64,000 bases of DNA, from IMG/VR virus record IMGVR_UViG_3300021197_001243, positions 19,757 through 83,756 of that record. One strand, written 5' to 3'. Shown piece after piece: positions 18,487-51,563 of this stretch (positions are counted from its first letter, which is position 1; every line of letters begins with the position of its first letter). Position numbers and translations under genes: made by a program. This DNA comes from a virus. The notes under the pieces are model-generated. The model was given only the letters and a program-made list of their open reading frames with translations. It did not search any database and was not told where the DNA came from.

Positions 18487-20514
18487 TTAAAAGGTCGTGG
18501 TTCCTTTCGGTTTTGTACCACCAAATAAAAGTCCTAATTCTTCTCCTCTGGCTGCAGAGTTATCTAAAATACCTTGAACTACTGCTCCAAGAGTTTCAGG
18601 TCGCTGTACAGCCTTATATACTTGGTTTGTCCTAGAATTTTTATACTCTATACGAACATAAGATTCAATATTTCCATGAGAAGGATTTCTTCTTACTTTA
18701 TATGTGTAATCTATATGTGTAACACCATTAGGCATTTTTCCATCAGTAATAGGATCTCCTGTTTTTGTAGGTTTAGGATAATTTATAGTTTTTGAAGCAT
18801 TAGGTTTACCTTGTGCAATAAGATCGGATACAGCCCCTAGTCTTTTAAACTCTGCTAGAGGTTTAGATTTGTCTCCTACAATAAGATTAAATACGTCCCC
18901 ATCACCAGACGTATATGTAATCTCCATTCCTCCTGCTAAAGGACCTCTTGCAGTTAATCCATTTATTTGAACTGTAGCCTCTGTATCTCCTCCTTGAAGG
19001 GCGGTTATAATTTCCTTCTGCCAATCCTCATCTAAATCCCAAAATTTACCATTAAATGGATTCCAAGTATCGTTTCTTTCGTCAGCAATTTGATCTCCCC
19101 ATTCATTTAATGTTAATGGAGTATTAGTGGGATTATCTATATCTATAACTTGTAAACTAGGAGAGTTACCTAATACTTTTTTCATAGACTCTATTCCTTC
19201 TATTCTAGGAGCATATACAGTACCTATTTGTACTGCAGGATTTTGTACAATTCCTTCCCAAAGTTCTTCAGAGTACTCTCTATCTGTTTGACCAGGTAGT
19301 CTAGGTACTACATTTGCATACTCCTCTCTAAGATATTGAAGTTTACCTTCTGTATTTCCTCTAATATTTAAAAGGTCCTTTCCTTCTGCAATTTGCTTTC
19401 TTACTCGTTTTGTAGATTCTTCAAGAGTAGATGGTCGAGTCTTACCTCCCCAAGGATCTTTTTGTTGGCCTGGTATAATAGAAATTTTACTGCCATCAGG
19501 ATTAAAATGCTCATCAAAATCAAGATTTTCTGTCTCTGGATCTATATCAACAGTTTGTCTAGATTCTACTGGAGTACTTGTTGGAGTTTCTTGATCTGCT
19601 AAAGCTTTCATATAAGGGCTTTGCATATATTGAAGCTTAGATCCTCTTTGAGGTGCAGCTGCTGAGATTAAATCTTGAAATAGTACTTGCTGTGCTTCTT
19701 GTGCATCATACAAGGTTCCTGTAGCATCATTAACTGAAAGTTGTTGTAATGCTCTCATTTTTTGTAGACCTTCTGCACTATCCATATACAAAGGTAATAC
19801 AGCCTCTGCAACTTTTCTTATTTTATTTCCTGATACTGCAGATCCACTTTGCAACATGAACATTGCTTGTTCTACAGGTAAGTTAAGATTAGCTGCTACT
19901 TGCTGTAAAAGAATAGGATCATCTGCAATACCTTGCATTAGTTGCCGGGCTTTTTCTTCTGCAGGGAGTTTATTTTCAGATAAAGGTTGATATACACCTT
20001 GAGTTTCAGTGACATGTGTATCAGTTACATGCTCAGTTATAACTTCTCCTGTTTTAGGATCTCTCATAGCAAGTCCTGTTACTGGATCTATAACAGGTTT
20101 TTCTCCAAAATCGTAAGATTGTAGCCCATTAGCTCTACGCTGCGATATAACTTCTAATTCTTTTTGTCGATTTTGCCAAGACTCTACAGCGTTAAGTACC
20201 TTTTTATCTGTCATAAAATCTGTTACAGAATCAGATACAGCCATAGATCCAAACTCGTATGCTCCAGAATCTACAACATTTGACATAGTATTTCCTACTC
20301 TCCCTCCAAGATCTTGTACAGTATAGCCATCTTTTTTTAAAGTTTGGACAGACCCCATAGCTCTTTGTAGATTATCATACTCTGCTTTATTAGTAGTATA
20401 TCTATTTGCTAAGGTTTCAGCAGTTTCTTTACGACCAAGATCTACAAACATAGATTCATACTCAGGAAATTGTATTCCTCCGTATTGATATTTCAGCTTC
20501 TCTTTGTAATCCAT
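18487..20514 (-). CDS. Putative virion cargo (ejection) protein, 675 aa
   Basis: Long ORF between the muzzle/LysM genes and the vRNAP gene, the usual cargo-gene position. N-terminus is helical and starts KYQYGG...YESMFVDL. Confidence 0.6.
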   Translation of the reverse strand: MDYKEKLKYQYGGIQFPEYESMFVDLGRKETAETLANRYTTNKAEYDNLQRAMGSVQTLKKDGYTVQDLGGRVGNTMSNVVDSGAYEFGSMAVSDSVTDFMTDKKVLNAVESWQNRQKELEVISQRRANGLQSYDFGEKPVIDPVTGLAMRDPKTGEVITEHVTDTHVTETQGVYQPLSENKLPAEEKARQLMQGIADDPILLQQVAANLNLPVEQAMFMLQSGSAVSGNKIRKVAEAVLPLYMDSAEGLQKMRALQQLSVNDATGTLYDAQEAQQVLFQDLISAAAPQRGSKLQYMQSPYMKALADQETPTSTPVESRQTVDIDPETENLDFDEHFNPDGSKISIIPGQQKDPWGGKTRPSTLEESTKRVRKQIAEGKDLLNIRGNTEGKLQYLREEYANVVPRLPGQTDREYSEELWEGIVQNPAVQIGTVYAPRIEGIESMKKVLGNSPSLQVIDIDNPTNTPLTLNEWGDQIADERNDTWNPFNGKFWDLDEDWQKEIITALQGGDTEATVQINGLTARGPLAGGMEITYTSGDGDVFNLIVGDKSKPLAEFKRLGAVSDLIAQGKPNASKTINYPKPTKTGDPITDGKMPNGVTHIDYTYKVRRNPSHGNIESYVRIEYKNSRTNQVYKAVQRPETLGAVVQGILDNSAARGEELGLLFGGTKPKGTTTF

Positions 20515-40631: not shown

Positions 40632-42086
40632 TTACGATGCTACGCACTCGATGTCAAGGCTAGTATCAAATCTGCTCAAGCAGACAGCACCAGTCTTCAA
40701 CATGTGTACAGAAGCACCATCTACGTCAGATGCACGAGAAGTGTTTGCATCGAATCCTCGAGGCACAACAGATCCAGGTACACACCATCGTAGGTGTTCG
40801 CGTCCTTTCTTAGAGATCATCTTAAGGTTTGCTTTTCCGTCATAATTAGACTGGTCAACAAATACCATACGATAAGACTCTAAAGAATATCCAGTTACTG
40901 GATGAAGAGCTCGAGCACGAGCAACAGGACCGTGATCAAACAACGGCATTTTCACAACATTAACAGCATGACCGTCAATGTGCTCATAACGCTTGAAGTA
41001 TCCTGTAAGTCCAAGATTTCTTCCTGATCCGTTGATGAACTCAGTAGTTGCACTTGCTTGCCACTGATTTGCATTGAAGTAAGCCTTCATTGCAGCATCA
41101 AATTCTCTCATACCACCAGTACCAGTGTAAAGAGTAACCTGCTTTTGGTTAGCATCAGTCATTCCGTAGAATAGGTCACCAATGATGTTCAAAAGTTGGT
41201 TTTCAGTCAAAGTAGCATAAGTCTCACGGTTGATGATTTGCTCAAGAAGACCTGGGCCAACAACAACTGGCTGTCCATTCTCATCTCGCATATTTACAAC
41301 ACCGTCATCGCCATACGTACGCTGACCGTACCAGTACATCATCTCGCATTCTTCTTTGAACTCAAGCATGTGCTGGTATTCTTCGTAATCCATCCAAAGT
41401 TTTGTAGTACCTCCGCCTTTCTTAGGAAGTGCGAACTCAGCTACAAAATCTTTAGCGTTACCTGACATATGGTAAGACTTACGTACTGTGGTAAGCTTGT
41501 TACGTACAAGCCCTGGAGCTTGCCAGTTAGAAGCATTTCCACGAGAGAAGTCTACTCCAACAGGTGCAAACAACTGAGCCCATAGGTCTCCCGCTGTAAA
41601 TCCTGTAGTTAGAACTGTAGCTGCTGCTGGGTTTACAAGTTGAAGAGTATATACCCATCCTTGTCCAGTGCTTGAAGCTACAGGCTCTCTCATAATACGA
41701 GCTTGCTCTCCTGCTCCGTTCACAAGAACGTAAGGAAATACAAACCACTTATCAGGGAATGTTAGTTCAAAAGTAGATCCTCCCTGTCCTAGGTTAGTTC
41801 CACCGTTAGTGACTGCCACAGGGCGAGTCATAAGTTTTCGAGTTGCTACACGATATTCATACTCCAATCGGTCAATAGATTCAACATTACCTACACCTTC
41901 TGACATAAAAGAAAGTGGGAAACGCATATCATCTCGTCCTGCGAGGTGTGTGATTATCGGAGACAATTCAGTCGGCTTTGACAACATTGCGTTAGCCAGA
42001 CTGTTCATGTCTGTCATCTGCGCATCGTTGAAAGTCGTGCGTACGACGGAAATATTCTCTCCGCCATTTCTTGGTCCATTAATCAT
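40632..42086 (-). CDS. Major capsid protein (crAss-like, HK97 fold)
   Basis: MTDMNSLAN...FPLSFMSEG...RNKLTTVRKS...KLWMDYEE...MYWYG...GPGLLEQI...LYTGTGGMREFD...PLFDHG...HPVTGYSLESYRMVFVD is the crAss MCP signature. Followed by a terminator. Confidence 0.92.
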   Translation of the reverse strand: MINGPRNGGENISVVRTTFNDAQMTDMNSLANAMLSKPTELSPIITHLAGRDDMRFPLSFMSEGVGNVESIDRLEYEYRVATRKLMTRPVAVTNGGTNLGQGGSTFELTFPDKWFVFPYVLVNGAGEQARIMREPVASSTGQGWVYTLQLVNPAAATVLTTGFTAGDLWAQLFAPVGVDFSRGNASNWQAPGLVRNKLTTVRKSYHMSGNAKDFVAEFALPKKGGGTTKLWMDYEEYQHMLEFKEECEMMYWYGQRTYGDDGVVNMRDENGQPVVVGPGLLEQIINRETYATLTENQLLNIIGDLFYGMTDANQKQVTLYTGTGGMREFDAAMKAYFNANQWQASATTEFINGSGRNLGLTGYFKRYEHIDGHAVNVVKMPLFDHGPVARARALHPVTGYSLESYRMVFVDQSNYDGKANLKMISKKGREHLRWCVPGSVVPRGFDANTSRASDVDGASVHMLKTGAVCLSRFDTSLDIECVAS

Positions 42087-42111: not shown

Positions 42112-43215
42112 TCAGCCTCCTAGGTTGTTAATATCAAAGTCTAAAGACTCAAATCCACTGTTAGAGCTATTTGATTTAGATCTAACACTCTTAGCCTTTT
42201 TACTATGACTTTCCAACTTTGTCTTTAGGGATTTAGCAGCTTTAGTAGTTGCTCTCTTCCCAATATATTTATCAATATCAAATCCTTTAAACATCAAGAA
42301 GTCTACAGCCAATTTCTGGTCCATACCTGCTTGATGAAAATCTATATCTCTTTGAGTTGCCCCAGTAGAGTCTATAGGTTTTGATATATAGTCGAAGAAT
42401 TTACCCTTATCTCTTTGTGAGATAGGAATCCCCGATAAGTTATCTGCTTCTGAGATTGTGGTACTTACATTCTCCCACATCTGCGCAGTTTGAGCATGTC
42501 TTTCTGCATTTACTCTTCTTTGATCTTCCAAAGTAGCTTCTCTTTGAAGAGCTTGTGCATCAGAAAGTGCTTTTTTAGCAGCCTCAGCTTTATCTTTTAG
42601 AGTTCCTTTATCTTCGTATGATTCTAACATATCTCCAATAAAATCCTTCTCTGTACCTCTTGCTATAAAGTAATCCGTAAGAACTCTTTTTTGCGAATTG
42701 GTATCATCTTCTTTAATTTCTATTCTAGAGTAATCTGTTTCAGGAGTAAAGGCCCTCATAAACTCATTAGGGTCTCCACCTTGTTGCACATACTCTAAAT
42801 GCTTTTGCACTGTAGGAAATCTTTCAAAAAGACTATCTAAAGTTTCGACAGCAAGTTTTTCAGAAATAGTTTGAGTGAGCTTAGTAAGCCCTTCAGTCGT
42901 GTCTTCAAATTCATCATCAATTTCATATCCAAATTTTTCTAAAATTTCACCAACCACTGTAGATTCTTCTTCAGTGTCTGTATCTTCATCTTTAGGTTCG
43001 ACTCTTAAAGGAGATTCTTCAACCTCATCTATAGTCTCATCTACATCCTCTGTTTCAGTCTCTGCTACAGGTTCTTCAATATCTGCAGGTTTTATTTCTG
43101 CAGCGGGTTCTACTTCTTTTGTAGGCTCTTCCTTAGCAGGTTCTTCCCTTACCGGCTGAGGAGTCAGTATATCATCAAATTCGATATCTAACGGCTCTAT
43201 TTGATTATCTTTCAT
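42112..43215 (-). CDS. Acidic scaffold-like protein upstream of MCP (conserved crAss capsid-module gene)
   Basis: Highly acidic low-complexity N-terminus and helical core; sits immediately upstream of the MCP. Confidence 0.7.
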   Translation of the reverse strand: MKDNQIEPLDIEFDDILTPQPVREEPAKEEPTKEVEPAAEIKPADIEEPVAETETEDVDETIDEVEESPLRVEPKDEDTDTEEESTVVGEILEKFGYEIDDEFEDTTEGLTKLTQTISEKLAVETLDSLFERFPTVQKHLEYVQQGGDPNEFMRAFTPETDYSRIEIKEDDTNSQKRVLTDYFIARGTEKDFIGDMLESYEDKGTLKDKAEAAKKALSDAQALQREATLEDQRRVNAERHAQTAQMWENVSTTISEADNLSGIPISQRDKGKFFDYISKPIDSTGATQRDIDFHQAGMDQKLAVDFLMFKGFDIDKYIGKRATTKAAKSLKTKLESHSKKAKSVRSKSNSSNSGFESLDFDINNLGG

Positions 43216-43294: not shown

Positions 43295-46200
43295 CTATTG
43301 ATATCTATGTAAACCTCCATCTCTAAATTCTTTTCTACCAGTATTATCCCCATAATTTACATATCCTTCAGGAATAGTTTCCCATTTTTTAGTTTTTCTA
43401 TTATATCTAGGAAGTCCTTTAGCATCATAAGTTTCTGCTGTACCAAAGGTTATAGCATTAGTAGGTGCTACAGTTGGCTCAATTATATCTTCATTGCCTA
43501 CTTCTGTAGGTAATAAATTCGGGTGTTTAACTGGCATCTGTTTAATTGGATCAATCTTATTCCACCAATTTCCTGGTGGAGGAAATCGTGTTGAAGTAGT
43601 AGGAGTAGGAGATGTTTGATTTTTAATGTAGCTGTCTGGAACTCCTTTTGAGCCATATTTCTCTACCCGCATCTTTTTTTGCTCTGGAGTAAGCATATCA
43701 AAAGGTGTAATAGCCAAATCATCATATGTATATATATGCACTTTTCTTGAATTTACTTCATGAGAGCCGTCTCTTGGAAGAGCAGTTAATTCAGCTTCTC
43801 CTTGCGGATCGATAAACCTATGTCTATACGTTGTAGGAAAGTCATCATCATCTCCACCACCCTGCCACCAATCTTTAGCTCCAACAAGATTTCCTTTTCT
43901 AGTTGGGGGAGATGAATTTGGGTCTAAATTCTTTTTTTCATAGTTTAAAGCGTCTACCAGTCCTTGAGAATCTTCAGACCATCCCTCTCTGGTCAGGAGT
44001 TGTGAATTATACATATCATCTGCTTGAGATGAGCTGCTTGTTTCTAAAAATTTAACATCTTTAGTTCCTTTGGCTATTAAGTCCGCAAGTATTTTATTGT
44101 TCTGCAATAAATTTATAGAGTCCAACCTTGTTGGAACTCCAGCATTTTGATATTTAGGTAAACCTCCGTTTTGATAATTTGTTACAACTTTACGTTCTCC
44201 AGTATTATCTCCAGGGTTATAGGTTCTTGTTGCTTTCCCTTCCTTTGCCAAATTTCTATGAGCAGTAAACAGTCTACCAGAAGGTTTTGACGGTTTAGCG
44301 TATTGTTGCATCCGTCTTATTTGTCGGTTTTGCTCTACCCATTCAGGAGGTTTTTCATATTCCATTCTAGAAGTTGCCATTACTGGTGAAGGTTTAGGAT
44401 ATATTGGATTTATAGAGTCTGTACTATCTAGATAAACCCCAGTAGATTTTATAGTGGGATGTATATAATCCATACTTTCAGATACATCCAGGTATCCTTT
44501 TTGATCTAATTGATCGTGCATTTTTCTATATGCCTCAAGAATAGCTTCTCTAGGCCCACCTACAGGATTACTAAAAAACTCACTTTTATCGTCATTGAAT
44601 GCGTTATACATTACGCCATCAAGTTCTGTAGGGGATTTAGTATCTAGATGATGTTTTTTAAAAACTTCTGGGTGAAAATGATCACCTAACTTCCCTTCAT
44701 CCATTTCCCTTTGAAGCCTCTCTCTCTTCGACTCTACAGGAGAAGCTTTAAATGCTGCTTCCATTGCCGCACGATCTTTTATTTCTTTTTCTCTTTCTTC
44801 TGGAGACAAAGAGTTTAAATGTTCTTGCAGTTTTACTTCAAATTCTTTACCTTCTTTTCTTTCAATAGCTTTCTCTTCTTGCGCTGCAACAATATCAAGT
44901 TCTTTCTGTAGATTCATCATATCCCACAAAAGAATACTATCGTTTCTTGAAGGTGCTATAGGATTTGTAGGAGTAGTTGCCACTCCAGCCATCTGATATT
45001 TAGGTATAGGGCCTCCGGTTTGATGATTACGTATTTGTCTATCAAATCTTCTTACCGATCTATCAGCTCTATTGGATGTCATTCCTTGATCCATTAAAGA
45101 CTCTTTATACGATTCATCATGAACTGCATCTATAGGGGGTAAATCGTATCCCTTTTTCTTAAGTTTATGAAAATCAGAGTTTACTACAGGATTGATTTCT
45201 TGCCTTATAAATTTATTAGTTTTTTTCCATGCTTCTTTTCTAGATAAATTCTTATCAGCTAGGTGATACTTGTAAATATCCTCTCTAAGATTATTTCGAT
45301 TCTCTCTATCACTATCTCCAACATTGAGCATATTTTGCCCAGTAATATCTGGGTAAGACCCTGATTCATTTGGAACTCCTGTATTGTAACCATATTGGGC
45401 TCCCATTCCAGTTCCAAAGAAAGGGCTGTATCCAAATCTCTTAGCATTCCAATGTTTATCTCCCTCGTATTCTACCTCTGGGTAATCTGCACTAATATCT
45501 GGATATAATCTACCAGTTCCTTTTTGGGCTTTTATATTATATCCTTGCCTTCCTTTAGACACATAATCTTCTACCCATTCTGTTTCCCACCCTTTTTTCT
45601 CTGGTTTTTTATCAGGGTCACTCCATAAATTCAAAGACTCCTGATATCCTACCCCCGGCTTATTTCTTGTACTCAGCCATCCAGAGCGAGTCACTGGGTC
45701 TGTAGTATGGTTTTTACCTTTTCCAACAGAATACAATCTATAAAACTCTGATTCAGCACGAGTTTCTGGTCTTTCAGTATTTCGTCTAATACTTCTTTTT
45801 GTAAGTGGATCTGTTTCTCCTCCGTCTTCATACTTAGGTATTGGCCCTCCGTATTTAAACTTATTTTTAGCTCTTAATCTACTTTTCTCTACTGCGTCCC
45901 AACCAGCCTGTCCATATCTTTCAATATATTTTTCTTTAGACCATATACTCCCGTCAGGCATTTTAATATTATATCCAGGCCTTTCTTCATGTTCCATTCT
46001 AGAAGTTGCCATTGTCTTCTTTATGGGTTCTACAACTTCTTCTACAACAGGCTCTGCAGTAGGAGTGTCTTTAGATTTAATTGGAGCAGTTGTTTTCAAT
46101 GTCCAAGGTATAGGTTTAATAGGTGCTACAGCTTTTGGATCGTTTAGATTTAGGCTTTTAACCTTAACAGCATTGTCAACCCCTTTTTTACGGCTTATAA

Positions 46201-48907
46201 CATCTTTTAGAGCGTCATACCCTAATGTATCTGCAACATTATTGTTTCGGGGATAAGATCGCATAAAAGGTAAATCTGTATGTATCCACGTTTTTGCATT
46301 GTTCGTCCACGATGATAAATAATATTCTGCATCATTTATCCATTCGGAATCATAGTCAGATACTTCGTTTTCACCCTTTAGTATTGCTTGAAGTAAATTA
46401 TTATCTACAGTTGGTGTATCACTAACAAACTTAGGTGTCCACTTACTTGCTCTCGGATCATGTTTATCAACACGCGCATTTTCTACGGAATCAAGTAAGC
46501 CTAGATGCTTATCAAACATAGTTTTAAACTCGGAGCTATCCGCATATGCTTCTGTTCGTCGTTTATTTAAATGCTTAAATCTTGCATTTAATAGGCGTAA
46601 ATTGTAATTATCTAAATTTTTGTCTCCTGTCATTTGATAATTAAGCTCTTCTCCTGGTCCACGAAGAGTTGATGCATCTAGTAATTCTTTAAGATTAGAT
46701 TTTGATCTCGTGCTATCTTTTTCTTTTTTATTAGGATCTGTAGGATCAACTTCTCCTCCGTTTTTGTACGTATGTAGACTTCTCATTCTACTAGATAGTT
46801 TTGGAGTTTTATCCGAAGCAAGCTCAGTTGTATATCTTTTCCCTTCAAAAGTGAACTCTTTTTCTCCAGCAGCTCTTGCCTGTCTAAATGCTTCTCCACG
46901 AGTCATAGTTTTTTCTACAGGTCTCTGTTCAAATCCCATGACTGATTCAGCCATAGTAGTTCTTGATTTAGGTTCAGGAGTAGTATCTAAGTTCCAGTTT
47001 CTTACAATAGTAGAATCAGGATATCCTAATTCTCTTAATTGATTGTAAGAGTATTTTTTACCATCAGTATGCATAAGATTTACAGCCTCTCTATCTCCTT
47101 GCCATTCTTTTTCAGGACCTCCCGTTTGATATCTATGTATGCCTCCGTTTTGATAACCCATATAACCTTTCATACTCCTATTTCTATCAGGATCTGTTAT
47201 AGAGTCCATAAGTTCTTTATCTAAAGCTCTGTATTCTCCTTTTCCTCCAAAATTCTTCTCTTCGTGTTCAAAAATTTGATCTTCAGTGACTCCATGCTTT
47301 TCCATATAAGCTTTATTATAACGAGTACTTCTACTTTTCAGTTTCTTTTCCCATTCTGCAGCACCACGATCAGCTAAATCTTTTTGTCTCCAAGGAAATG
47401 CTCCATACTGAGACGCACTTTGATCTTCGTCTTCTCCTGAAAACATTCCTCCTGTAGGTTGTCCTTTTTGATGCAAAGCTCCTTCAAGGATATTTACTCC
47501 TTCCATCATTGTAAGAGCAGGTCCAAGTATTTTAGTAAAGTGAGAAAGAACATTTCCATAAGGTATTTTAAACTTTCTTATATATTCAGCAGCAGTTTTT
47601 CCAAATTTATCATACCCTGCTTTACTTCCTGTACCATAAAGTTTTTCTCCTAAGTAATCCATTGCTTTAGGTAGACCTGTCTTGTCGACCATTTTTCCTA
47701 CATCAAATTTTCCTAAATATTCTTTTCTAGCTCTCGCAAGACCTTCTTTACCTACCCATCCTTTTTCTGCTGCAATTGCTGCAGCTTCTTCTGCTACAGA
47801 AGCATTTCCCCCAGCAAGACTTAAATATTTATAATCAGGTATAATATTACCCCCTTTTAATCCTTCTACTCCTCCTAATCCTATTCTAGAACCACTTAAA
47901 GGATTATGAACTCCTTTAGGAAATAAATAAGAGTCTTTAAAAAGTCTACCAGGGCTATCCCAAGCTGCTAAAAAAGGTCCCATACCCTTTTCAACTCCTT
48001 CTGCAACACTTTTATAAGCTGAATTTTCAGGTTTTTCTGTCCATTCTTCTAATTTATCAATATCGTGTAAAGAAGTAGTTAGTCCTAAGAATGGAGTAGG
48101 AAGACTCCCAGCCATTTCAACTCCCCCATATAAAAATCCAGGCATAACTTCTGAAGTATCTTCCTCCATTCCTAGATTTTTTAATACATAGTTTTTTGCT
48201 TGTCTTAGTTTATGATTAGAAAGTAAAACACCTCCTCCTGGACCTGTAGGGTCTATGTCTGTTTCTATACCAACTCCTAGTGGATCAGAATAAGGAAAAT
48301 AACTTCTTACTCCTACACCAGGACCCCCTGCAGAAGTAAATGTTCCAGTACCTTCAAATCCTATTCTTGAAAATTCTTCTCTTGGAGAGGTTAAGTAAGG
48401 TTTTCCCTCTACTTCATATTCTTGAGGTGTACCCCACCATTCTTGTAATTTATTATCTGCTCCTCTAAGAACACCTTTATTACTATTACTTTCTCTAGAT
48501 TCTAAGTCTTTTAAAAATTTTAATTGCTCTTTTAATTTTTTAGAATCTGTTTCTTTTTTTACAGCCTGTTCAGATGCGTACACATTATCTGCTGCTAAAG
48601 GCTTTTTTACACCAGCTATCTGGTATTTAGGTAAACCTCCGTTTTGATACTCAGGATTTTGAGTTCTGTAAGTCGGGCCAAAAGGACGTCGATTTCTTCC
48701 TTGTTGTGGACCGTTAGCATAAACTCCAAAAGAAGGATTTGTATTTGTAAACTTACTTTGGTCCGTGTAAGGAGTTTCAGATACAGGAAGAGTATTGTAA
48801 TTAGAAATTACAGGTGTATCTAAAGCATTTTTAGGGACAAACCTTTTTATATCATCAAGACTAGATGACTGCAGTTTAGGAGAAAACTTTATTTTCTTTC
48901 TTTTCAT
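43295..48907 (-). CDS. 1870-aa modular protein punctuated by YQxGG-type repeats; putative internal virion (poly)protein
   Basis: Long ORF between portal and scaffold. Seven motif clusters (e.g. YQNGGLPKYQIAG, YQNGGIHRYQTGG, FKYGGPIPKYEDGG). Contains a small GEAFRQARAAGEKEFTFEGKRYTT domain. Confidence 0.75.
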   Translation of the reverse strand: MKRKKIKFSPKLQSSSLDDIKRFVPKNALDTPVISNYNTLPVSETPYTDQSKFTNTNPSFGVYANGPQQGRNRRPFGPTYRTQNPEYQNGGLPKYQIAGVKKPLAADNVYASEQAVKKETDSKKLKEQLKFLKDLESRESNSNKGVLRGADNKLQEWWGTPQEYEVEGKPYLTSPREEFSRIGFEGTGTFTSAGGPGVGVRSYFPYSDPLGVGIETDIDPTGPGGGVLLSNHKLRQAKNYVLKNLGMEEDTSEVMPGFLYGGVEMAGSLPTPFLGLTTSLHDIDKLEEWTEKPENSAYKSVAEGVEKGMGPFLAAWDSPGRLFKDSYLFPKGVHNPLSGSRIGLGGVEGLKGGNIIPDYKYLSLAGGNASVAEEAAAIAAEKGWVGKEGLARARKEYLGKFDVGKMVDKTGLPKAMDYLGEKLYGTGSKAGYDKFGKTAAEYIRKFKIPYGNVLSHFTKILGPALTMMEGVNILEGALHQKGQPTGGMFSGEDEDQSASQYGAFPWRQKDLADRGAAEWEKKLKSRSTRYNKAYMEKHGVTEDQIFEHEEKNFGGKGEYRALDKELMDSITDPDRNRSMKGYMGYQNGGIHRYQTGGPEKEWQGDREAVNLMHTDGKKYSYNQLRELGYPDSTIVRNWNLDTTPEPKSRTTMAESVMGFEQRPVEKTMTRGEAFRQARAAGEKEFTFEGKRYTTELASDKTPKLSSRMRSLHTYKNGGEVDPTDPNKKEKDSTRSKSNLKELLDASTLRGPGEELNYQMTGDKNLDNYNLRLLNARFKHLNKRRTEAYADSSEFKTMFDKHLGLLDSVENARVDKHDPRASKWTPKFVSDTPTVDNNLLQAILKGENEVSDYDSEWINDAEYYLSSWTNNAKTWIHTDLPFMRSYPRNNNVADTLGYDALKDVISRKKGVDNAVKVKSLNLNDPKAVAPIKPIPWTLKTTAPIKSKDTPTAEPVVEEVVEPIKKTMATSRMEHEERPGYNIKMPDGSIWSKEKYIERYGQAGWDAVEKSRLRAKNKFKYGGPIPKYEDGGETDPLTKRSIRRNTERPETRAESEFYRLYSVGKGKNHTTDPVTRSGWLSTRNKPGVGYQESLNLWSDPDKKPEKKGWETEWVEDYVSKGRQGYNIKAQKGTGRLYPDISADYPEVEYEGDKHWNAKRFGYSPFFGTGMGAQYGYNTGVPNESGSYPDITGQNMLNVGDSDRENRNNLREDIYKYHLADKNLSRKEAWKKTNKFIRQEINPVVNSDFHKLKKKGYDLPPIDAVHDESYKESLMDQGMTSNRADRSVRRFDRQIRNHQTGGPIPKYQMAGVATTPTNPIAPSRNDSILLWDMMNLQKELDIVAAQEEKAIERKEGKEFEVKLQEHLNSLSPEEREKEIKDRAAMEAAFKASPVESKRERLQREMDEGKLGDHFHPEVFKKHHLDTKSPTELDGVMYNAFNDDKSEFFSNPVGGPREAILEAYRKMHDQLDQKGYLDVSESMDYIHPTIKSTGVYLDSTDSINPIYPKPSPVMATSRMEYEKPPEWVEQNRQIRRMQQYAKPSKPSGRLFTAHRNLAKEGKATRTYNPGDNTGERKVVTNYQNGGLPKYQNAGVPTRLDSINLLQNNKILADLIAKGTKDVKFLETSSSSQADDMYNSQLLTREGWSEDSQGLVDALNYEKKNLDPNSSPPTRKGNLVGAKDWWQGGGDDDDFPTTYRHRFIDPQGEAELTALPRDGSHEVNSRKVHIYTYDDLAITPFDMLTPEQKKMRVEKYGSKGVPDSYIKNQTSPTPTTSTRFPPPGNWWNKIDPIKQMPVKHPNLLPTEVGNEDIIEPTVAPTNAITFGTAETYDAKGLPRYNRKTKKWETIPEGYVNYGDNTGRKEFRDGGLHRYQ
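44151..44176. repeat. 26-bp exact direct repeat, copy 1 (copy 2 at 48624-48649)
   Basis: TATTTAGGTAAACCTCCGTTTTGATA at both sites; encodes YQNGGLPKY on the minus strand. Confidence 0.9.
44360..44381. repeat. 22-bp exact direct repeat, copy 1 (copy 2 at 45992-46013)
   Basis: TTCCATTCTAGAAGTTGCCATT at both sites; encodes MATSRME. Confidence 0.9.
45992..46013. repeat. 22-bp exact direct repeat, copy 2
   Basis: Identical to 44360-44381. Confidence 0.9.
48624..48649. repeat. 26-bp exact direct repeat, copy 2
   Basis: Identical to 44151-44176. Confidence 0.9.
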
Positions 48908-49350
48908 TTCCTTTTGCTTTTCCGGTATTTTTCAATCTTTTCGGAAAAGGAAAGGTCTTTAAGTGGTCTTTCAACAACTCCGCCTGCTCGGTATTGTGTA
49001 GGGTTTTCTATAACTGTATCTACCTTTGGACCCATAGGAACATTGTCTATTCCAGGAGGAACAGCTTCGTAAGATCTTACAAGTCCTCCTTGAGAGTCAA
49101 ATCCTTGCATATCTACAGGATAGTCCATACCCATTGTATTAAAATCTTGTCCTCCAGTGTTAGGAAAAGCCATAGATCTTGGTGGGCCCTCAGTTAATCC
49201 TATTTGTTGTTCTTGAGGAGTAGATGCTATATCCATACCTTGTTGCTCTTGCATATTTAAGGCTTCTTGCTGGTCTATAAGCTCAGTTATACTTCCAAAA
49301 TAAGCAGGATCAGACTCCCAAGCACTTCGCATTATATCTAAAGCATCCAT
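48904..49350 (-). CDS. Hypothetical protein downstream of portal (148 aa)
   Basis: Coupled to both neighbours (TAATG and ATGA overlaps). FNTMGMDYPVDMQG...VIENP core followed by QYRAGG. Confidence 0.7.
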   Translation of the reverse strand: MDALDIMRSAWESDPAYFGSITELIDQQEALNMQEQQGMDIASTPQEQQIGLTEGPPRSMAFPNTGGQDFNTMGMDYPVDMQGFDSQGGLVRSYEAVPPGIDNVPMGPKVDTVIENPTQYRAGGVVERPLKDLSFSEKIEKYRKSKRK

Positions 49351-51563
49351 TATTTTTTATCTTTTTTATTTGCTGCTTTACGAGAGATATCTTCTTTAGC
49401 CCTATTAGATCTTTCTTTTTCACTTAACTCTCTTTCTTTTATAGCGTTAGCTTTATCTTGATAGCTATTATCTACGGGAGGTGGAGGCATTTCTTCTTTA
49501 TTTGCAATCTCCGCAACTTCAATTTTTGTATCTCTGTCAAGCTGCATATTCATATTGTGATCTTTTCTCTCTTGCTCTTTAAGTGCAACTTCTGCTTGAC
49601 GTAATTCTTGTTCAGCCTGACTTTGAGCCGCTTCAAGTTCTTGCATTTCTGCTTCAGCTTCTTTGATCTTATCTTTCATCATAATGAAGCTTTCAGAATC
49701 AACTATGTCTGCCACTGTACTTGCAGCTATACCGTTTTGTAGCATACCCATACCTAACTCTTTCATTAGATTAAGTTTTTCAAGCTCTTTAGTAGCATCT
49801 GATACAAAAATTCCTAAGTCCGCCTCTAAGTAAGGTAAAGGGTCTATACTTAAAAACTCTACAGCTCCGTCAGGCATTACATACTGTGCTTTTTTACCAG
49901 TTATCCATGCTTCTTTAGAGTAATCTAATAAAGCTTGTAAATCTCTTTGTTCCACTCCAGCAAATTTCCTGTAAAGATCCTCAGTGGTATGTGCACTCTG
50001 TACGATAGCCTGCTGACTTGTAGCTTTACCATCATATTCAGACATCCCACCCATTCTTTGACGGTTAACACCTGAAACTCTCTCCCATTCTACTTGAATA
50101 GAATTAAGTAGTTCAACATAAGTACCCATTGTCTTCATAGAAAGGTCAAGCACAGACTGATGTTGTGGACTCAGTTTTACTCCTTCTTTGTTGTAGTCTA
50201 TCCAGGCAATACCTGTACCTTCTACGTAGTACATGAATTTATCCATGTCCCATTTCTTAGGGATAAGGTTAATATCAAGTTGGGCAATAATATCTTTAGA
50301 TCTAGCTATAGCTAATTCAAGTCGATACTTATAAGTATTATAATTCAATTGGTAAGGTACCCCTAACATAACTAGAGATACATTCCTTGAATTTATATCT
50401 GAGTATTTTCTACCGTTTATAGGTAGTTTATTTTTTGAAGGGTTATCTATCGACATTCTTTGGTTGTCGAAAGGTCTCATATTAATATAAAGATCATCCC
50501 CAATACATATTCCTTGATAAACAAGGTTATGCCACTCCCATTCTATTTTAGCACCAAATTCTTTCAGTTCTGGTGGGATTCTAAATCCGTCTTCCACTTC
50601 CATTGTCTCCATACCTCCTGTTTCAGGATCGAAGAAGGTCATAAACCCTGTTCTTTGCATGGATTGCCAGTAAAGTATCCTTACCCGTACAAGTCGGTCT
50701 CTTAACTCTTCTTGTCTATTGACATAATTAGAGTCATAGAAAAACCCTGCATCACCTGCACTCTGAAACACCTGATCAATTTGTTCAGGGGTAAGGTCTC
50801 TCCCCCATTTTTCTACTACAGAAGATGGATGCATGTATTTGGTTACCATTGCCCAATCACCATCCTCTACATAGTCTAAATCCGGATCTAGATCATAGTC
50901 TACATCTAAGGGGTTAAGAATATCATAAAATACTTCGTCATTTCTTACACCTCGCTCCGTGTAGCATTCTCCTGCTACTAAAAAGTGAAACCAGGCTTTT
51001 TGAATTTTTTCATGTACCTGACAATGTTGGAGAATGTAATTCATTCCCTTTTGTCCTAAGATAGCTCTTGTGTCAGTGTAACTCCTGTCGAACATTTTTG
51101 CTAGTTCTTCAGGTAGTTGAGGCTGTTCTTGAGTTGGAACTCCTGTTTCCATACCCATAACATTTAATTCATTTACAAAAGCTTGTTTCATAGATTCTAA
51201 AACAACTGCTTTCTTCTCCTCTTCCATACGGGAAACGGAGTCCGAATTCTGCACGGTCACTGTATAGCTGAACGGACGCTTTGCCTTTTCCCCGAGAAGT
51301 AGGTCAATAATCGGTTTAATAAGGGGATAGTTGCGCATTTTTGAAGGGAAGTTCTTACGGGCTTTGCCGTAAGGCTGCACAACATACTGATAGTCGTCAT
51401 CGTGTATAACACCATTGTAGTAATCGTACAGCTTTCGGAGCTCCTCTTTCCTGTAAGTTCTTCCGTCTTCGGCAATAGAAAAATAGGACTCCATCGTATC
51501 GATGGCCCATTGTTTAGTTTTTCTTGCCTGTGGTATTCTTTGATTTGGTATCTCGCTATACAT
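49350..51563 (-). CDS. Portal protein (crAss-like)
   Basis: IPNQRIP...YDYYNG...RNYPLIKPIIDLLLGE...KLPING...YQLNYN...VSGVNRQRMG; directly downstream of TerL. Confidence 0.92.
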   Translation of the reverse strand: MYSEIPNQRIPQARKTKQWAIDTMESYFSIAEDGRTYRKEELRKLYDYYNGVIHDDDYQYVVQPYGKARKNFPSKMRNYPLIKPIIDLLLGEKAKRPFSYTVTVQNSDSVSRMEEEKKAVVLESMKQAFVNELNVMGMETGVPTQEQPQLPEELAKMFDRSYTDTRAILGQKGMNYILQHCQVHEKIQKAWFHFLVAGECYTERGVRNDEVFYDILNPLDVDYDLDPDLDYVEDGDWAMVTKYMHPSSVVEKWGRDLTPEQIDQVFQSAGDAGFFYDSNYVNRQEELRDRLVRVRILYWQSMQRTGFMTFFDPETGGMETMEVEDGFRIPPELKEFGAKIEWEWHNLVYQGICIGDDLYINMRPFDNQRMSIDNPSKNKLPINGRKYSDINSRNVSLVMLGVPYQLNYNTYKYRLELAIARSKDIIAQLDINLIPKKWDMDKFMYYVEGTGIAWIDYNKEGVKLSPQHQSVLDLSMKTMGTYVELLNSIQVEWERVSGVNRQRMGGMSEYDGKATSQQAIVQSAHTTEDLYRKFAGVEQRDLQALLDYSKEAWITGKKAQYVMPDGAVEFLSIDPLPYLEADLGIFVSDATKELEKLNLMKELGMGMLQNGIAASTVADIVDSESFIMMKDKIKEAEAEMQELEAAQSQAEQELRQAEVALKEQERKDHNMNMQLDRDTKIEVAEIANKEEMPPPPVDNSYQDKANAIKERELSEKERSNRAKEDISRKAANKKDKK

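What the first reader, a model, noticed from the sequence alone, without database searches (positions are those of the whole stretch)
43295..48907. Polyprotein-like 1870-aa gene: modules separated by a repeated double YQxGG motif
Seen: seven motif clusters punctuate the ORF: EYQNGGLPKYQIAG (~48630), GYQNGGIHRYQTGG (~47140), TYKNGG (~46765), KFKYGGPIPKYEDGG (~45840), NHQTGGPIPKYQMAG (~45005), NYQNGGLPKYQNAG (~44160) and terminal EFRDGGLHRYQ-stop. Most are tandem pairs eight or nine residues apart. The last three modules are each ~280 aa. The final two look paralogous (SRNDSILLW/TRLDSINLL, YIHPTI/YRHRFI, PGDNTGERK/YGDNTGRKE), while the others look unrelated. The gene interrupts the otherwise conserved portal-scaffold-MCP order. 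Inference: an expandable array of effector cassettes, each flanked by a signal for capsid loading and/or Gly-Gly-directed proteolysis (compare adenain and ubiquitin-like GG sites). This would deliver several anti-host or anti-defence proteins from one gene. I know of no characterised description of such a system.
Basis: partly seen in the sequence, partly recalled or inferred. Interest (0 to 1): 0.85.

Follow-up and report, generated by a model that had tools for sequence, protein, structure and literature searches.

The report
Swappable cargo modules joined by Gly-Gly seams
A marine crAss-like phage has, next to its portal gene, a 1870-residue protein made of exchangeable modules joined by one short conserved peptide; related phages swap modules exactly at these joints, but nothing yet shows the joints are cut.

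Summary
The ORF (43295-48907, minus strand, 1870 aa) and its seven motif clusters are real. The motif occurs 12 times against 0.57 expected.

The phage is an uncultured seawater member of Crassvirales. The gene lies in a hypervariable slot between the portal and a scaffold-like gene. In 41 related loci this slot is 89 bp to 5.9 kb long, against 6.1 kb here.

Homologues share single modules in different orders, and the breakpoints fall on the motif. Contigs from another study join modules exactly inside the motif-coding repeats.

Four features point to a virion-carried, injected cargo protein of the "polyvalent protein" kind:
- it has no cysteine, like crAss001 cargo;
- it has a basic N-terminal leader;
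- it shares the motif with the C1-like cargo protein;
- relatives carry cell-wall enzyme modules.

Cleavage at Gly-Gly is untested. No protease family was detected. The RNA-polymerase cargo lacks the motif. The claimed paralogy of the last two modules reduces to a roughly 22-residue junction element.

This scan has already noted the same Gly-Gly seam on other DNA: 44 notes in at least 42 genomes. I found no published description of the motif.

The parts
43295..48907 (-). 1870-aa multi-module protein (P0001). Modules: A 1-86, B 100-584, C 598-713, D 719-1016, E 1031-1294, F 1309-1577, G 1591-1860.
   Evidence: It has 0 Cys and no Pfam, PHROG or PDB match.
48788..48907 (-). Conserved basic N-terminal leader (aa 1-40, MKRKKIKFSPKLQSSSLDDIKRF...).
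   Evidence: The leader is shared with P0003, P0005, P0023 and P0033, whose modules differ. An X7 joint lies at aa 41.
48611..48649 (-). Junction A|B: YQNGGLPKYQIAG.
   Evidence: repeat D1. It is a breakpoint with P0002. X7 joints lie at 48642/48644, and an X6 contig bridges it.
47117..47155 (-). Junction B|C: YQNGGIHRYQTGG.
   Evidence: repeat D1. It is a breakpoint with P0002 and P0004. An X7 joint lies at 47142.
46754..46768 (-). Junction C|D: single YKNGG followed by EVDPTDP.
   Evidence: An X5 contig bridges it.
45818..45859 (-). Junction D|E: FKYGGPIPKYEDGG followed by ETDP.
   Evidence: repeat D7. An X7 joint lies at 45825, and an X5 contig bridges it.
44984..45025 (-). Junction E|F: HQTGGPIPKYQMAG.
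   Evidence: repeat D1. An X7 joint lies at 45019.
44138..44176 (-). Junction F|G: YQNGGLPKYQNAG.
   Evidence: repeat D1. It is a breakpoint with P0003. An X7 joint lies at 44161, and an X6 contig bridges it.
43298..43327 (-). C-terminal truncated junction FRDGGLHRYQ-stop.
   Evidence: The same ending occurs in P0005, P0006, P0009 and the 1400-aa protein of L002.
48904..49350 (-). 148-aa DUF192-like head protein, ending in PTQYRAGG plus a basic tail. Its stop overlaps the start of P0001.
   Evidence: The window's own copy matches PF02643 only at E = 0.0027, below the curated cut-off. Nine of 48 slot-region proteins match, best 4.9e-8. In relatives the domain stands alone or forms the N-terminal domain of the array. 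The GG is invariant in 19 sequences.
42112..43215 (-). 367-aa acidic, Cys-free scaffold-like protein; the downstream border of the slot.
   Evidence: No family or PDB match. The nearest named Atlas cluster is 'scaffolding protein' at 0.83, which is only a lead.
49350..51563 (-). Portal protein; the upstream border of the slot.
   Evidence: phrog_6547, E = 1e-107.
40632..42086 (-). Crassvirus major capsid protein.
   Evidence: PF23898, E = 1e-81.
20519..22867 (-). 782-aa C1-like cargo protein. It has a basic leader, KKYQTAG at aa 24, FGNGGLPKYQSG directly before a LysM domain, and 0 Cys.
   Evidence: Its relative in L082 diverges at a GG motif.
18487..20514 (-). 675-aa C2-like protein that starts MDYKEKLKYQYGG and has 0 Cys.
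   Evidence: The motif is absent from the L082 homologue.
44348..44380 (-). Second recurrent element, (T)MATSRME-x-E-x-(R/P)P (aa 1510-1520). It also occurs at 45980-46012 (aa 966-976) and 46922-46954 (aa 652-662).
   Evidence: (repeat D5). Breakpoints lie at aa 980 and 1509.

Best explanation
The gene encodes a hypervariable, multi-cassette cargo protein of a marine crAss-like phage. It works like the 'polyvalent proteins' of phages.

Proposed life cycle (inferred):
- It is made together with the head genes.
- It is loaded into the procapsid near the portal, probably through its conserved basic N-terminal leader and/or the neighbouring DUF192-like head protein.
- At infection it is threaded out through the tail as a cysteine-free string of independently folding modules.
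- The modules then act on the host, at least partly on the cell envelope.

The conserved junction peptide has an aromatic residue, then Q/K, any residue and Gly-Gly. It is usually followed by L-P-K-Y-Q-x-A/G-G. This peptide and its roughly 40-nt coding repeat form the seam between modules. Recombination at these seams adds, deletes and reorders cassettes in frame, so the slot between the portal and the scaffold-like gene serves as an exchangeable payload bay.

Shown: the motif enrichment; seams that coincide with breakpoints; the variability of the slot; natural joints inside the repeats; purifying selection on the GG; and signatures shared with verified crAss001 cargo.

Inferred: packaging, ejection, the functions of the modules, and whether the seam is cut, used as a docking handle, or left as an uncut hinge.
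For: 1. Motif statistics. 12 hits against 0.57 expected, and 5 pairs against 0.0008.

2. Mosaic homologues. Each of 10 relatives (P0002-P0011) shares 5-26% of the protein at 68-98% identity. The BLAST borders fall at the junctions. Over 48 slot-region proteins, 127 of 276 internal breakpoints lie within 15 aa of a motif, against 27.8 +/- 4.9 and a maximum of 42 in 1000. Module orders differ: A-B-C-D-E-F-G here, A-D-C.. in P0005, A-D-G-C in P0006.

3. Slot variability. In 41 loci that hold both borders, the gap runs from 89 bp (6 loci) to 5922 bp; it is 6135 bp here. This holds even among phages whose MCP is 94-97% identical.

4. Split forms break at the motif. The second ORF of L008 and L010 starts MYRGLHRYQKAG. 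In L018 the first ORF ends FKHGGAARRYMRY and the second starts MKRHRYQTKG.

5. Joints in an independent run (X7).
- 44161->47142: net loss 2976 nt = 992 codons.
- 45825->48785: net loss 2697 nt = 899 codons.
- 48642->45019.
- All endpoints lie in junction codons or at the end of the leader: aa 1583, 589, 1028, 41, 89 and 1297 (with the repeats).

6. Selection on the peptide.
- The GG is invariant in 19 DUF192-head sequences that are 25-81% identical.
- The motif stands directly after Met plus 3-8 residues in stand-alone relatives. 8 of 58 have it within 35 aa, against 0.68 by shuffling.

7. Cargo signatures.
- 0 Cys in 1870 aa.
- The cargo-like set has 2 Cys in 9438 aa; the other late proteins have 112 in 8257 aa.
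- The same contrast holds in crAss001, where cargo was shown by mass spectrometry and cryo-EM (PMC10172136). gp45, gp46, gp47 and gp49 have 2, 0, 1 and 1 Cys; gp22, gp25, gp26 and gp44 have 10 each.
- crAss001 gp45 also starts with a basic leader plus FDTGG, and has MFAYGG at 559, 7 aa after its resolved portal-bound domain 425-552.

8. Module content in relatives. SLT begins 6 aa after a motif in P0004. YkuD, PG_binding_1 and DUF192 occur in slot proteins. LysM follows a motif directly in the C1-like protein.
Against: - There is no direct evidence that the protein is in virions or is ejected.
- No module of this protein has a recognisable family.
- The gene does not lie in the cargo gene cluster. 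The crAss001 C1 portal-binding domain PF25725 is not detectable in this genome.
- In crAss001 the portal-to-MCP interval holds head-fibre, tailspike and lysis genes rather than cargo.
- The motif is absent from the RNA-polymerase cargo (4324 aa) and the 1639-aa protein, and from the C2 homologue of L082. It is therefore not a general cargo mark.
- Among distant module homologues (30-47% identity), a strict motif lies within 40 aa of only 11 of 50 projected internal borders, against 6.7 by chance. The exact NGGLPKYQ coding pattern occurs in only 2 IMG/VR contigs. The strict seam is thus a feature of a narrow subclade.
- The motif is not enriched in the cultured relative FpV4.
- The X7 joints come from Logan contigs of low depth (2-2.8). 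I did not check them for chimeras, and reads were not available.
- Breakpoint counts come from related sequences and are not independent events.
Confidence: 0.62

Rival explanations
1. It is a true polyprotein. A protease, either host-encoded or a phage enzyme too divergent to recognise, cuts at or beside the Gly-Gly seams, in the capsid or after ejection. Cutting releases about 7 separate proteins and trims the short basic leaders and tails, as the T4 prohead protease trims capsid-targeting sequences.
For: - The motif brackets modules even at protein ends. At N-termini there is a short basic leader plus the motif, in 8 of 58 proteins. At C-termini there is the motif plus a short basic tail.
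- The same modules exist as separate ORFs that are split at the motif.
- The natural C-terminus ...GGLHRYQ(Q)-stop recurs in 5 proteins.
- Candidate zincin motifs (HExxH) occur in the 4324-aa cargo protein (HEGFH at aa 1896) and in modules of relatives P0004, L017, L069 and L076.
- The literature proposes cleavage of fused crAss virion proteins by a zincin-like protease (passages).
- From memory, not from a call: Gly-Gly or Ala-Gly is the site type of adenain, ASFV pS273R, poxvirus I7L and Ulp1.
Against: - None of the following families has a match in six frames of a 97%-complete genome: Peptidase_C48, C5, S77, S78 and MPTase-PolyVal.
- No peptidase family appears among the Pfam matches of the late ORFs or of 44 further ORFs, where the 25 families most matched are listed.
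- The crAss001 structure paper does not use the words cleav-, proteoly- or protease.
- The residue between Q and GG is variable, and tandem sites 8-9 aa apart would release useless octapeptides.
- Earlier follow-ups in this scan leaned towards uncut joints (AI notes, not evidence).
Confidence: 0.28
2. The seam peptide is a docking or sorting handle that is not cut. Each copy would bind a virion component (portal, scaffold-like protein or tail barrel) or a host envelope component. That would load or order the envelope-acting class of cargo.
For: - The motif is confined to the slot array, the DUF192 head, and the C1-like and C2-like proteins. These are the proteins that carry cell-wall domains.
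- The motif is kept at N-termini, where there is nothing to link.
- The GG is invariant.
- In crAss001, C1 binds both the portal and the tail barrel through short segments.
Against: - No partner is known.
- One handle per polypeptide should be enough.
- The motif is absent from the other cargo proteins.
- It is not conserved at the N-terminus of C2 in L082.
Confidence: 0.22
3. The protein is not internal cargo. It is an external, hypervariable appendage such as a head fibre, tail fibre or depolymerase string, or else a lysis accessory. In crAss001 such genes occupy the portal-to-MCP interval.
For: - In crAss001, gp21-gp30 between the portal and gp31/MCP are head fibre, tailspike, hydrolases, lysis proteins and an L,D-carboxypeptidase.
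- Hypervariability is typical of receptor-binding proteins.
- Modules in relatives are cell-wall enzymes.
Against: - It has 0 Cys, whereas the external proteins of this phage and of crAss001 hold 0.3-7% Cys.
- There are no fibre, beta-helix, Ig or lectin family matches.
- It shares its leader and seam with the C1-like protein.
- The phage has its own amidase and holin elsewhere.
Confidence: 0.1

Closest known systems
Polyvalent proteins of phages and conjugative elements (Iyer et al. 2017, PMC5512222; passages read)
   Same: - One polypeptide holds many unrelated modules.
- The gene lies beside portal and head genes.
- The protein is predicted to be packaged and injected.
- Mosaicism is extensive and is ascribed to an arms race.
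- Processing is predicted but mostly unproven.
- A remote relative of a module B sub-domain (P0045) carries InPase, acylphosphatase and HD_4 domains. An ART-PolyVal domain occurs in 1 of 60 remote hits.
   Different: - None of the signature domains (MuF, MPTase, ART and others) is detectable in this protein.
- The paper describes no conserved inter-domain peptide; the word 'linker' occurs 0 times in it.
- Here the modules are delimited by a repeated seam peptide whose coding repeats are the recombination points.
Cargo proteins C1/C2 (gp45, gp46) of Bacteroides phage crAss001 (Bayfield et al. 2023, PMC10172136; passages read)
   Same: - Same virus order.
- Cys-poor.
- A basic N-terminal leader followed by an aromatic-x-x-GG peptide.
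- A GG peptide lies at the edge of the resolved portal-binding domain of gp45.
- The window's own C1-like protein shares the seam.
   Different: - The gene lies in the portal/scaffold slot, not in the cargo cluster.
- PF25725 is not found.
- No TM-like segment: the maximum Kyte-Doolittle mean over 19 aa is 1.15.
- It has seven modules and six internal seams in place of one protein body.
Fused virion RNAP 'polyprotein' of crAss-like phages with a zincin-like protease (Drobysheva et al., bioRxiv 10.1101/2020.03.07.982082; passages read)
   Same: - A giant virion protein proposed to be cleaved into components.
- This window has such a fusion: 4324 aa with DFDID and HEGFH.
   Different: - That polyprotein has no GG seam here: 0 motifs in 4324 aa.
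- Its parts are collinear orthologues, not shuffled cassettes.
Junction motifs of bacterial polymorphic toxins (CdiA VENN, Rhs PxxxxDPxGL); recalled, not read here
   Same: A short conserved peptide marks the border at which variable cassettes are exchanged by recombination.
   Different: - Those systems have one C-terminal cassette per protein and are bacterial secretion substrates.
- Here there is a tandem multi-cassette array in a phage head-gene module.
T4 internal proteins with a capsid-targeting sequence, and GG/AG-cleaved polyproteins of adenovirus, ASFV and poxviruses; recalled
   Same: - A short leader and/or a Gly-Gly site is associated with proteins loaded into a capsid.
   Different: - The cognate protease families were sought here and not found.
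- Cleavage has not been shown.

Membership tests
Phage polyvalent proteins (Iyer et al. 2017) | Several unrelated effector-type domains in one polypeptide, with mosaic architectures among relatives | tested here: met
   There are seven modules with no mutual similarity. Relatives show shuffled orders and named domains: SLT, YkuD and PG_binding_1.
Phage polyvalent proteins (Iyer et al. 2017) | Gene lies among portal/head (virion) genes | tested here: met
   It lies between the portal and the scaffold-like gene/MCP.
Phage polyvalent proteins (Iyer et al. 2017) | Signature domains (MuF, MPTase-PolyVal, ART-PolyVal and others) in the protein | tested here: not met
   There is no Pfam match in P0001 apart from one chance-level hit (EF-hand_STIM1, E = 0.12). 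PF18818 is absent from the genome. A weak ART-PolyVal match lies in the 4324-aa protein, not here.
Phage polyvalent proteins (Iyer et al. 2017) | Packaged in the virion and delivered to the host | not testable with these tools
   Only indirect signs exist: Cys depletion, the leader, and the motif shared with the C1-like protein.
Crassvirales cargo protein C1 (crAss001 gp45, Pfam PF25725) | Portal-binding domain crAss_CARG1 | tested here: not met
   There is no match at E <= 10 in six frames of the genome.
Crassvirales cargo protein C1 (crAss001 gp45, Pfam PF25725) | Basic N-terminal leader, Cys-poor, GG peptides at domain edges | tested here: met
Crassvirales cargo protein C1 (crAss001 gp45, Pfam PF25725) | Position in the cargo cluster downstream of the tail genes | tested here: not met
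   The gene lies between the portal and the scaffold-like gene. The C1-like gene of this phage is at 20519-22867.
Viral polyprotein cut at GG/AG by a clan-CE cysteine protease (adenain, ASFV pS273R, I7L, Ulp1-like) | A cognate protease encoded by the virus | tested here: not met
   PF00770 and PF02902 have no match at E <= 1. PF03290 was not searched on its own. No peptidase appears among the Pfam matches of the ORFs.
Viral polyprotein cut at GG/AG by a clan-CE cysteine protease (adenain, ASFV pS273R, I7L, Ulp1-like) | Mature products with termini at the sites | not testable with these tools
   This needs virion proteomics of a cultured member.
Head proteins processed by a prohead protease (T4 gp21 / HK97 gp4 type) | Prohead protease gene in the head module | tested here: not met
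   PF03420 and PF04586 have no match. The 148-aa gene in the usual protease position is DUF192-like. The 367-aa gene has no protease match.
DUF192 (PF02643), for the 148-aa head protein | Match to the family profile above the curated cut-off | tested here: inconclusive
   The window's copy scores E = 0.0027 and 18.2 bits, against a cut-off of 27. Nine of 48 relatives match at E <= 0.001, best 4.9e-8. A profile of the family finds no DUF192 structure in the PDB.

The most novel reading that the evidence does not exclude
The aromatic-Q-x-Gly-Gly seam would be the recognition code of an undescribed cargo-handling system in marine Crassvirales. Any module flanked by the seam would be accepted into a payload bay next to the portal, loaded into the capsid, and released as a separate protein. 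Release would depend on a protease that is host-encoded or belongs to no known family. One slot could then deliver an arbitrary, rapidly exchangeable set of envelope-breaching and host-modifying proteins.
Probability: 0.25. Interest if true: 0.85.

Novelty: new variant of a known kind. Interest (0 to 1): 0.62.

Why it matters
Crassvirales are among the most abundant phages, yet how they choose and deliver their injected proteins is largely unknown.

This locus shows a defined seam peptide and coding repeat at which whole protein modules are exchanged in frame. It also shows a single genomic slot whose content runs from nothing to 6 kb among near-identical phages. That makes three questions directly testable:
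- Is the seam a cutting site, a docking handle or only a hinge?
- What do the unknown modules do to marine Bacteroidota?
- Can the seam be used to load foreign proteins into a capsid?

The cysteine-free signature, shared with the verified cargo of crAss001, may also be a simple predictor of ejected proteins.

Tried and rejected
FUNCTION OF THE MODULES
- Pfam, PHROGs, PDB-sequence and ESM-Atlas searches of the protein or of module E gave nothing usable.
- tblastn of the whole protein against 50,697 phage records found no match.
- The phmmer search of aa 100-1294 against 1.84 billion representatives gave 66 hits. Pfam scans named domains in only a few of them. Of the 16 hits scanned one by one, 14 had no family. 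I did not locate which hit holds the ART-PolyVal domain.

PROTEASE HUNT
- This was negative, as listed under the rivals.
- The scaffold-like 367-aa protein gave only chance-level PDB matches (Piwi, E = 0.59) and low Atlas leads.
- PHROGs did not name the HEGFH region.

PARALOGY OF MODULES F AND G
- Rejected.
- An earlier weak alignment of P0001 1299-1590 to module G of P0003 (20% identity, E = 5e-5) was made without composition correction in a 4-sequence database. I do not rely on it.

HOW FAR THE MOTIF REACHES
- Exact coding patterns found only 1 and 2 IMG/VR contigs.
- FpV4 is not enriched.
- Distant homologues show only weak enrichment at projected borders.

LITERATURE
- Searches for the motif strings, for crAss-like + cargo + proteolytic (0 papers) and for polyvalent proteins + crAss (3 papers, listing only) gave no description of the seam.
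- The DUF192 search (listing only) gave no function.
The mass-spectrometry table of PMC10172136 could bear on whether gp45 is intact, and I did not see it.

EARLIER SCAN NOTE
I could not verify this.
- From the paper's text and the gp45 sequence, the nearest loose motif (aa 559) lies just outside the resolved 425-552.

SEQUENCING RUNS
- The X1 joint 44860->47720 has a side of only 21 letters, and I disregard it.
- Parts of the stretch without cover in X5, X6 and X7 are not used as evidence.

CLOSED OR UNAVAILABLE TOOLS


Full report
WHAT IS THERE

The window is the late region of an uncultured crAss-like phage.
- Large terminase: phrog_6681, E = 1e-128.
- Portal: phrog_6547, E = 1e-107.
- Crassvirus major capsid protein: PF23898, E = 1e-81.
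- Tail ring proteins 1 and 2.
- A 4324-aa protein with the DFDxD motif of virion RNA polymerases.

The contig is 83,756 bp, and CheckV rates it 97% complete. It comes from seawater. Its capsid protein is at most about 35% identical to that of any phage in the GenBank collection searched (33% for matches over most of its length).

The ORF at 43295-48907 (minus strand) is open for 1870 codons. Its start overlaps the stop of a 148-aa gene that follows the portal. Downstream lie a 367-aa acidic scaffold-like gene and then the capsid gene.

THE OBSERVATION

- The pattern [YFH][QKRE]x[GA]G occurs 12 times. Residue shuffles give 0.57 +/- 0.74, with a maximum of 5 in 5000.
- Five tandem pairs lie 8-9 residues apart, against 0.0008 expected.
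- The other 32 ORFs of the window hold 8 hits together. Among these are the N-termini of the 782-aa and 675-aa proteins and the C-terminal part of the 148-aa protein.
- The seam coding sequences form a 41-nt direct-repeat family that is 63-88% identical to its reference copy.

One sub-claim fails. Modules F and G are not detectably paralogous: BLAST gives E = 3.6. hhalign aligns only 22 junction-proximal columns, GDNTG...GGLxxYQ.

THE MODULES ARE CASSETTES AND THE MOTIF IS THE SEAM

Ten relatives from the 5.8-billion-protein collection each share only 5-26% of the protein, at 68-98% identity. The alignments begin and end at the junctions:
- aa 88-589 matches P0002 518-1025;
- aa 577-715 matches P0004 8-140;
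- aa 1575-1870 matches P0003 347-647;
- aa 714-1033 and 554-723 match P0005 in the reverse order.

Over 48 slot-region proteins, 127 of 276 internal breakpoints lie within 15 aa of a motif. Chance gives 27.8 +/- 4.9, with a maximum of 42 in 1000. These sequences are related, so the counts are not independent events.

Architecture strings differ between proteins:
- this protein: A-B-C-D-E-F-G;
- P0005: A-D-C-..;
- P0006: A-D-G-C;
- L002 and P0007: A'-c-E-b.

Module F has no relative in this set.

A second recurrent element, (T)MATSRME-x-E-x-(R/P)P, lies 51-68 aa upstream of three seams. It is also a breakpoint, at aa 980 and 1509.

A HYPERVARIABLE SLOT

Eighty IMG/VR loci have capsid proteins 73-98% identical to this one. 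In the 41 that hold both the end of the portal gene and the start of the scaffold-like gene, the interval varies widely:
- 89 bp with no gene in 6 loci;
- about 0.5 kb with only the DUF192-like gene in 6 loci;
- up to 5922 bp in L016;
- 6135 bp in this window.

Even phages with 94-97% identical capsid proteins differ. L002 has one protein of 1400 aa, L008 has 592 + 610 aa, L009 has 807 aa and L010 has 541 + 640 aa.

The cultured Flavobacterium phage FpV4 has portal, a 381-aa gene and the capsid gene with nothing between.

The 148-aa protein is DUF192-like. The window's own copy is below the curated cut-off. Nine of 48 relatives match, best 4.9e-8. The domain either stands alone or forms the N-terminal domain of the array, and it is always followed by P-x-x-Y-[KQR]-x-G-G. 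That GG is invariant in 19 sequences that are 25-81% identical.

Where arrays are split into two genes, the split lies in the motif.

A contig of a different crAss-like lineage (L083, capsid protein 27% identical) has the same arrangement and shares modules.

INDEPENDENT DNA EVIDENCE

The stretch is held whole by four seawater runs of one study. These may be its source and are not independent.

Two other studies (X5, X6) give short contigs with 0 differences that bridge the seams A|B, C|D, D|E and F|G. The module order here is therefore not a chimera.

A fourth study (X7) has contigs of a relative in which module B is joined directly to G:
- joint 44161->47142, with 4 letters between, a net loss of 2976 nt = 992 codons.

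In the same run the head region is joined to E:
- joint 45825->48785, with 262 letters between, a net loss of 2697 nt = 899 codons.

E is in turn joined back to the A|B seam (48642->45019).

Every endpoint lies in seam codons or at the end of the conserved leader: aa 1583, 589, 1028, 41, 89 and 1297. These are low-depth Logan contigs, so reads or long reads should confirm them.

WHY I READ IT AS CARGO

1. Cysteine.
- This protein has 0 Cys in 1870 aa.
- With the 148-aa, C1-like, C2-like, 4324-aa and 1639-aa proteins, the set has 2 Cys in 9438 aa. The other late proteins have 112 in 8257 aa.
- Slot proteins of relatives are likewise nearly Cys-free. A 278-aa exonuclease gene inserted in the slot of three loci has 10 Cys.
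- In crAss001, cargo was identified by mass spectrometry and cryo-EM (PMC10172136, passages). There gp45, gp46, gp47 and gp49 have 2, 0, 1 and 1 Cys, while gp22, gp25, gp26 and gp44 have 10 each.

2. A basic N-terminal leader, as in crAss001 gp45 and the window's C1-like protein.

3. The seam is shared with the C1-like protein. It occurs at aa 24, and again directly before the LysM domain. The relative in L082 diverges at a GG motif.

4. The modules that can be named in relatives are cell-wall enzymes or binders: SLT, YkuD, PG_binding_1 and LysM. These fit proteins that act during entry.

All of this is indirect.

WHAT THE SEAM DOES

A pure hinge is unlikely, for three reasons:
- the GG is invariant;
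- the motif persists at 27-36% module identity;
- it stands at N-termini with nothing upstream. 8 of 58 Met-started remote hits have it within 35 aa. Shuffling gives 0.68, and these proteins' own motif density gives about 4.

Cleavage remains possible but is unsupported.
- Six-frame searches for Peptidase_C48, C5, S77, S78 and MPTase-PolyVal found nothing.
- No peptidase appears among the Pfam matches of the ORFs.
- HExxH motifs exist in the 4324-aa protein and in some modules of relatives.
- The literature has proposed a zincin-like protease for fused crAss virion proteins.

A general loading signal is unlikely, because the RNA polymerase and the 1639-aa protein have no such motif.

The strict seam is also narrow.
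- The exact coding pattern occurs in 2 IMG/VR contigs.
- Enrichment at the projected borders of distant homologues is weak: 11 of 50 against 6.7.

COMPARISON WITH WHAT IS KNOWN

The closest concept is the polyvalent protein (PMC5512222). This protein meets the architectural and contextual features of that class. It lacks the signature domains, so I say it works like one rather than that it is a member.

It resembles crAss001 C1 in leader, composition and GG peptides. It lacks the portal-binding domain PF25725 and sits elsewhere in the genome.

I did not find the seam peptide itself in the literature library. This scan has, however, noted the same kind of Gly-Gly seam in crAss cargo on other DNA: 44 notes in at least 42 genomes (AI notes). 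This report adds four things:
- the portal-side slot with a DUF192-like head and occupancy from zero to 6 kb;
- natural joints inside the seam repeats;
- the cysteine signature, checked against crAss001;
- the negative protease searches.

LIMITS

- No cultured member of this clade is known to me.

Noticed in passing
window 572-22867 and 43295-49350; L086 (crAss001): The predicted ejected proteins are almost free of cysteine (2 in 9438 aa), while the other late proteins have 1.36%. The verified cargo of crAss001 shows the same contrast. This may be a general and simple predictor of ejected proteins.
   Followed up: partly
window 44348-44380, 45980-46012, 46922-46954: A second conserved element, (T)MATSRME-x-E-x-(R/P)P, lies 51-68 aa before three seams, and modules also recombine there. 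It resembles the N-terminus (MATS...) of widespread small stand-alone proteins that share the mini-domain of module C: P0064, P0066, P0068 and P0073.
   Followed up: partly
window 42060-42086 (MCP N-terminus) and the MCPs of L001-L080: The variable first 5-9 residues of the capsid protein end in G or GG, directly before the conserved block xNISV. Examples are MINGPRNGG-ENISV, MITSPIGG-QNISV and MSLTG-TNISV. This could be a trimmed leader or simply chance.
   Followed up: no
window 5491-18465: The 4324-aa protein combines DFDID at aa 3312 (the catalytic motif of virion RNA polymerases), HEGFH at aa 1896 (a zincin-like motif) and a weak ART-PolyVal match at aa 3862-3929. It has only 1 Cys and no GG seam.
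   Followed up: partly
L003 538-1374, L007 1841-2677, L018 1798-2634: In three close relatives, a separate 278-aa gene lies in the slot before the scaffold-like gene. It matches RNase_H_2 and DNA_pol_B_exo2 and has 10 Cys.
   Followed up: no
L083 5468-9733: A crAss-like lineage whose capsid protein is only 27% identical has the same arrangement: a seam-punctuated array upstream of an acidic scaffold-like gene. It shares modules G and 'b', which suggests exchange of cassettes between lineages.
   Followed up: partly
P0004 aa 1388; L017; L069; L076: Some slot modules of relatives carry HExxH motifs. In P0004 the module also has a long hydrophobic Ala/Gly-rich stretch. These may be metallopeptidase or membrane-active modules, and Pfam does not recognise them.
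   Followed up: no
P0045, P0062 (remote hits): A sub-domain of module B of about 100 aa (P0001 aa 185-292) also occurs in many small proteins. It further occurs at the N-terminus of an 883-aa protein with InPase, acylphosphatase and HD_4 domains, and in a 593-aa protein with a GDSL lipase domain. Neither of these two has GG seams.
   Followed up: partly
control genomes: Peptidase_C48 (Ulp1-like, a Gly-Gly-specific clan) matched above its cut-off in the Bacteroides thetaiotaomicron control genome. A host-side Gly-Gly protease in Bacteroidota is therefore conceivable.
   Followed up: no
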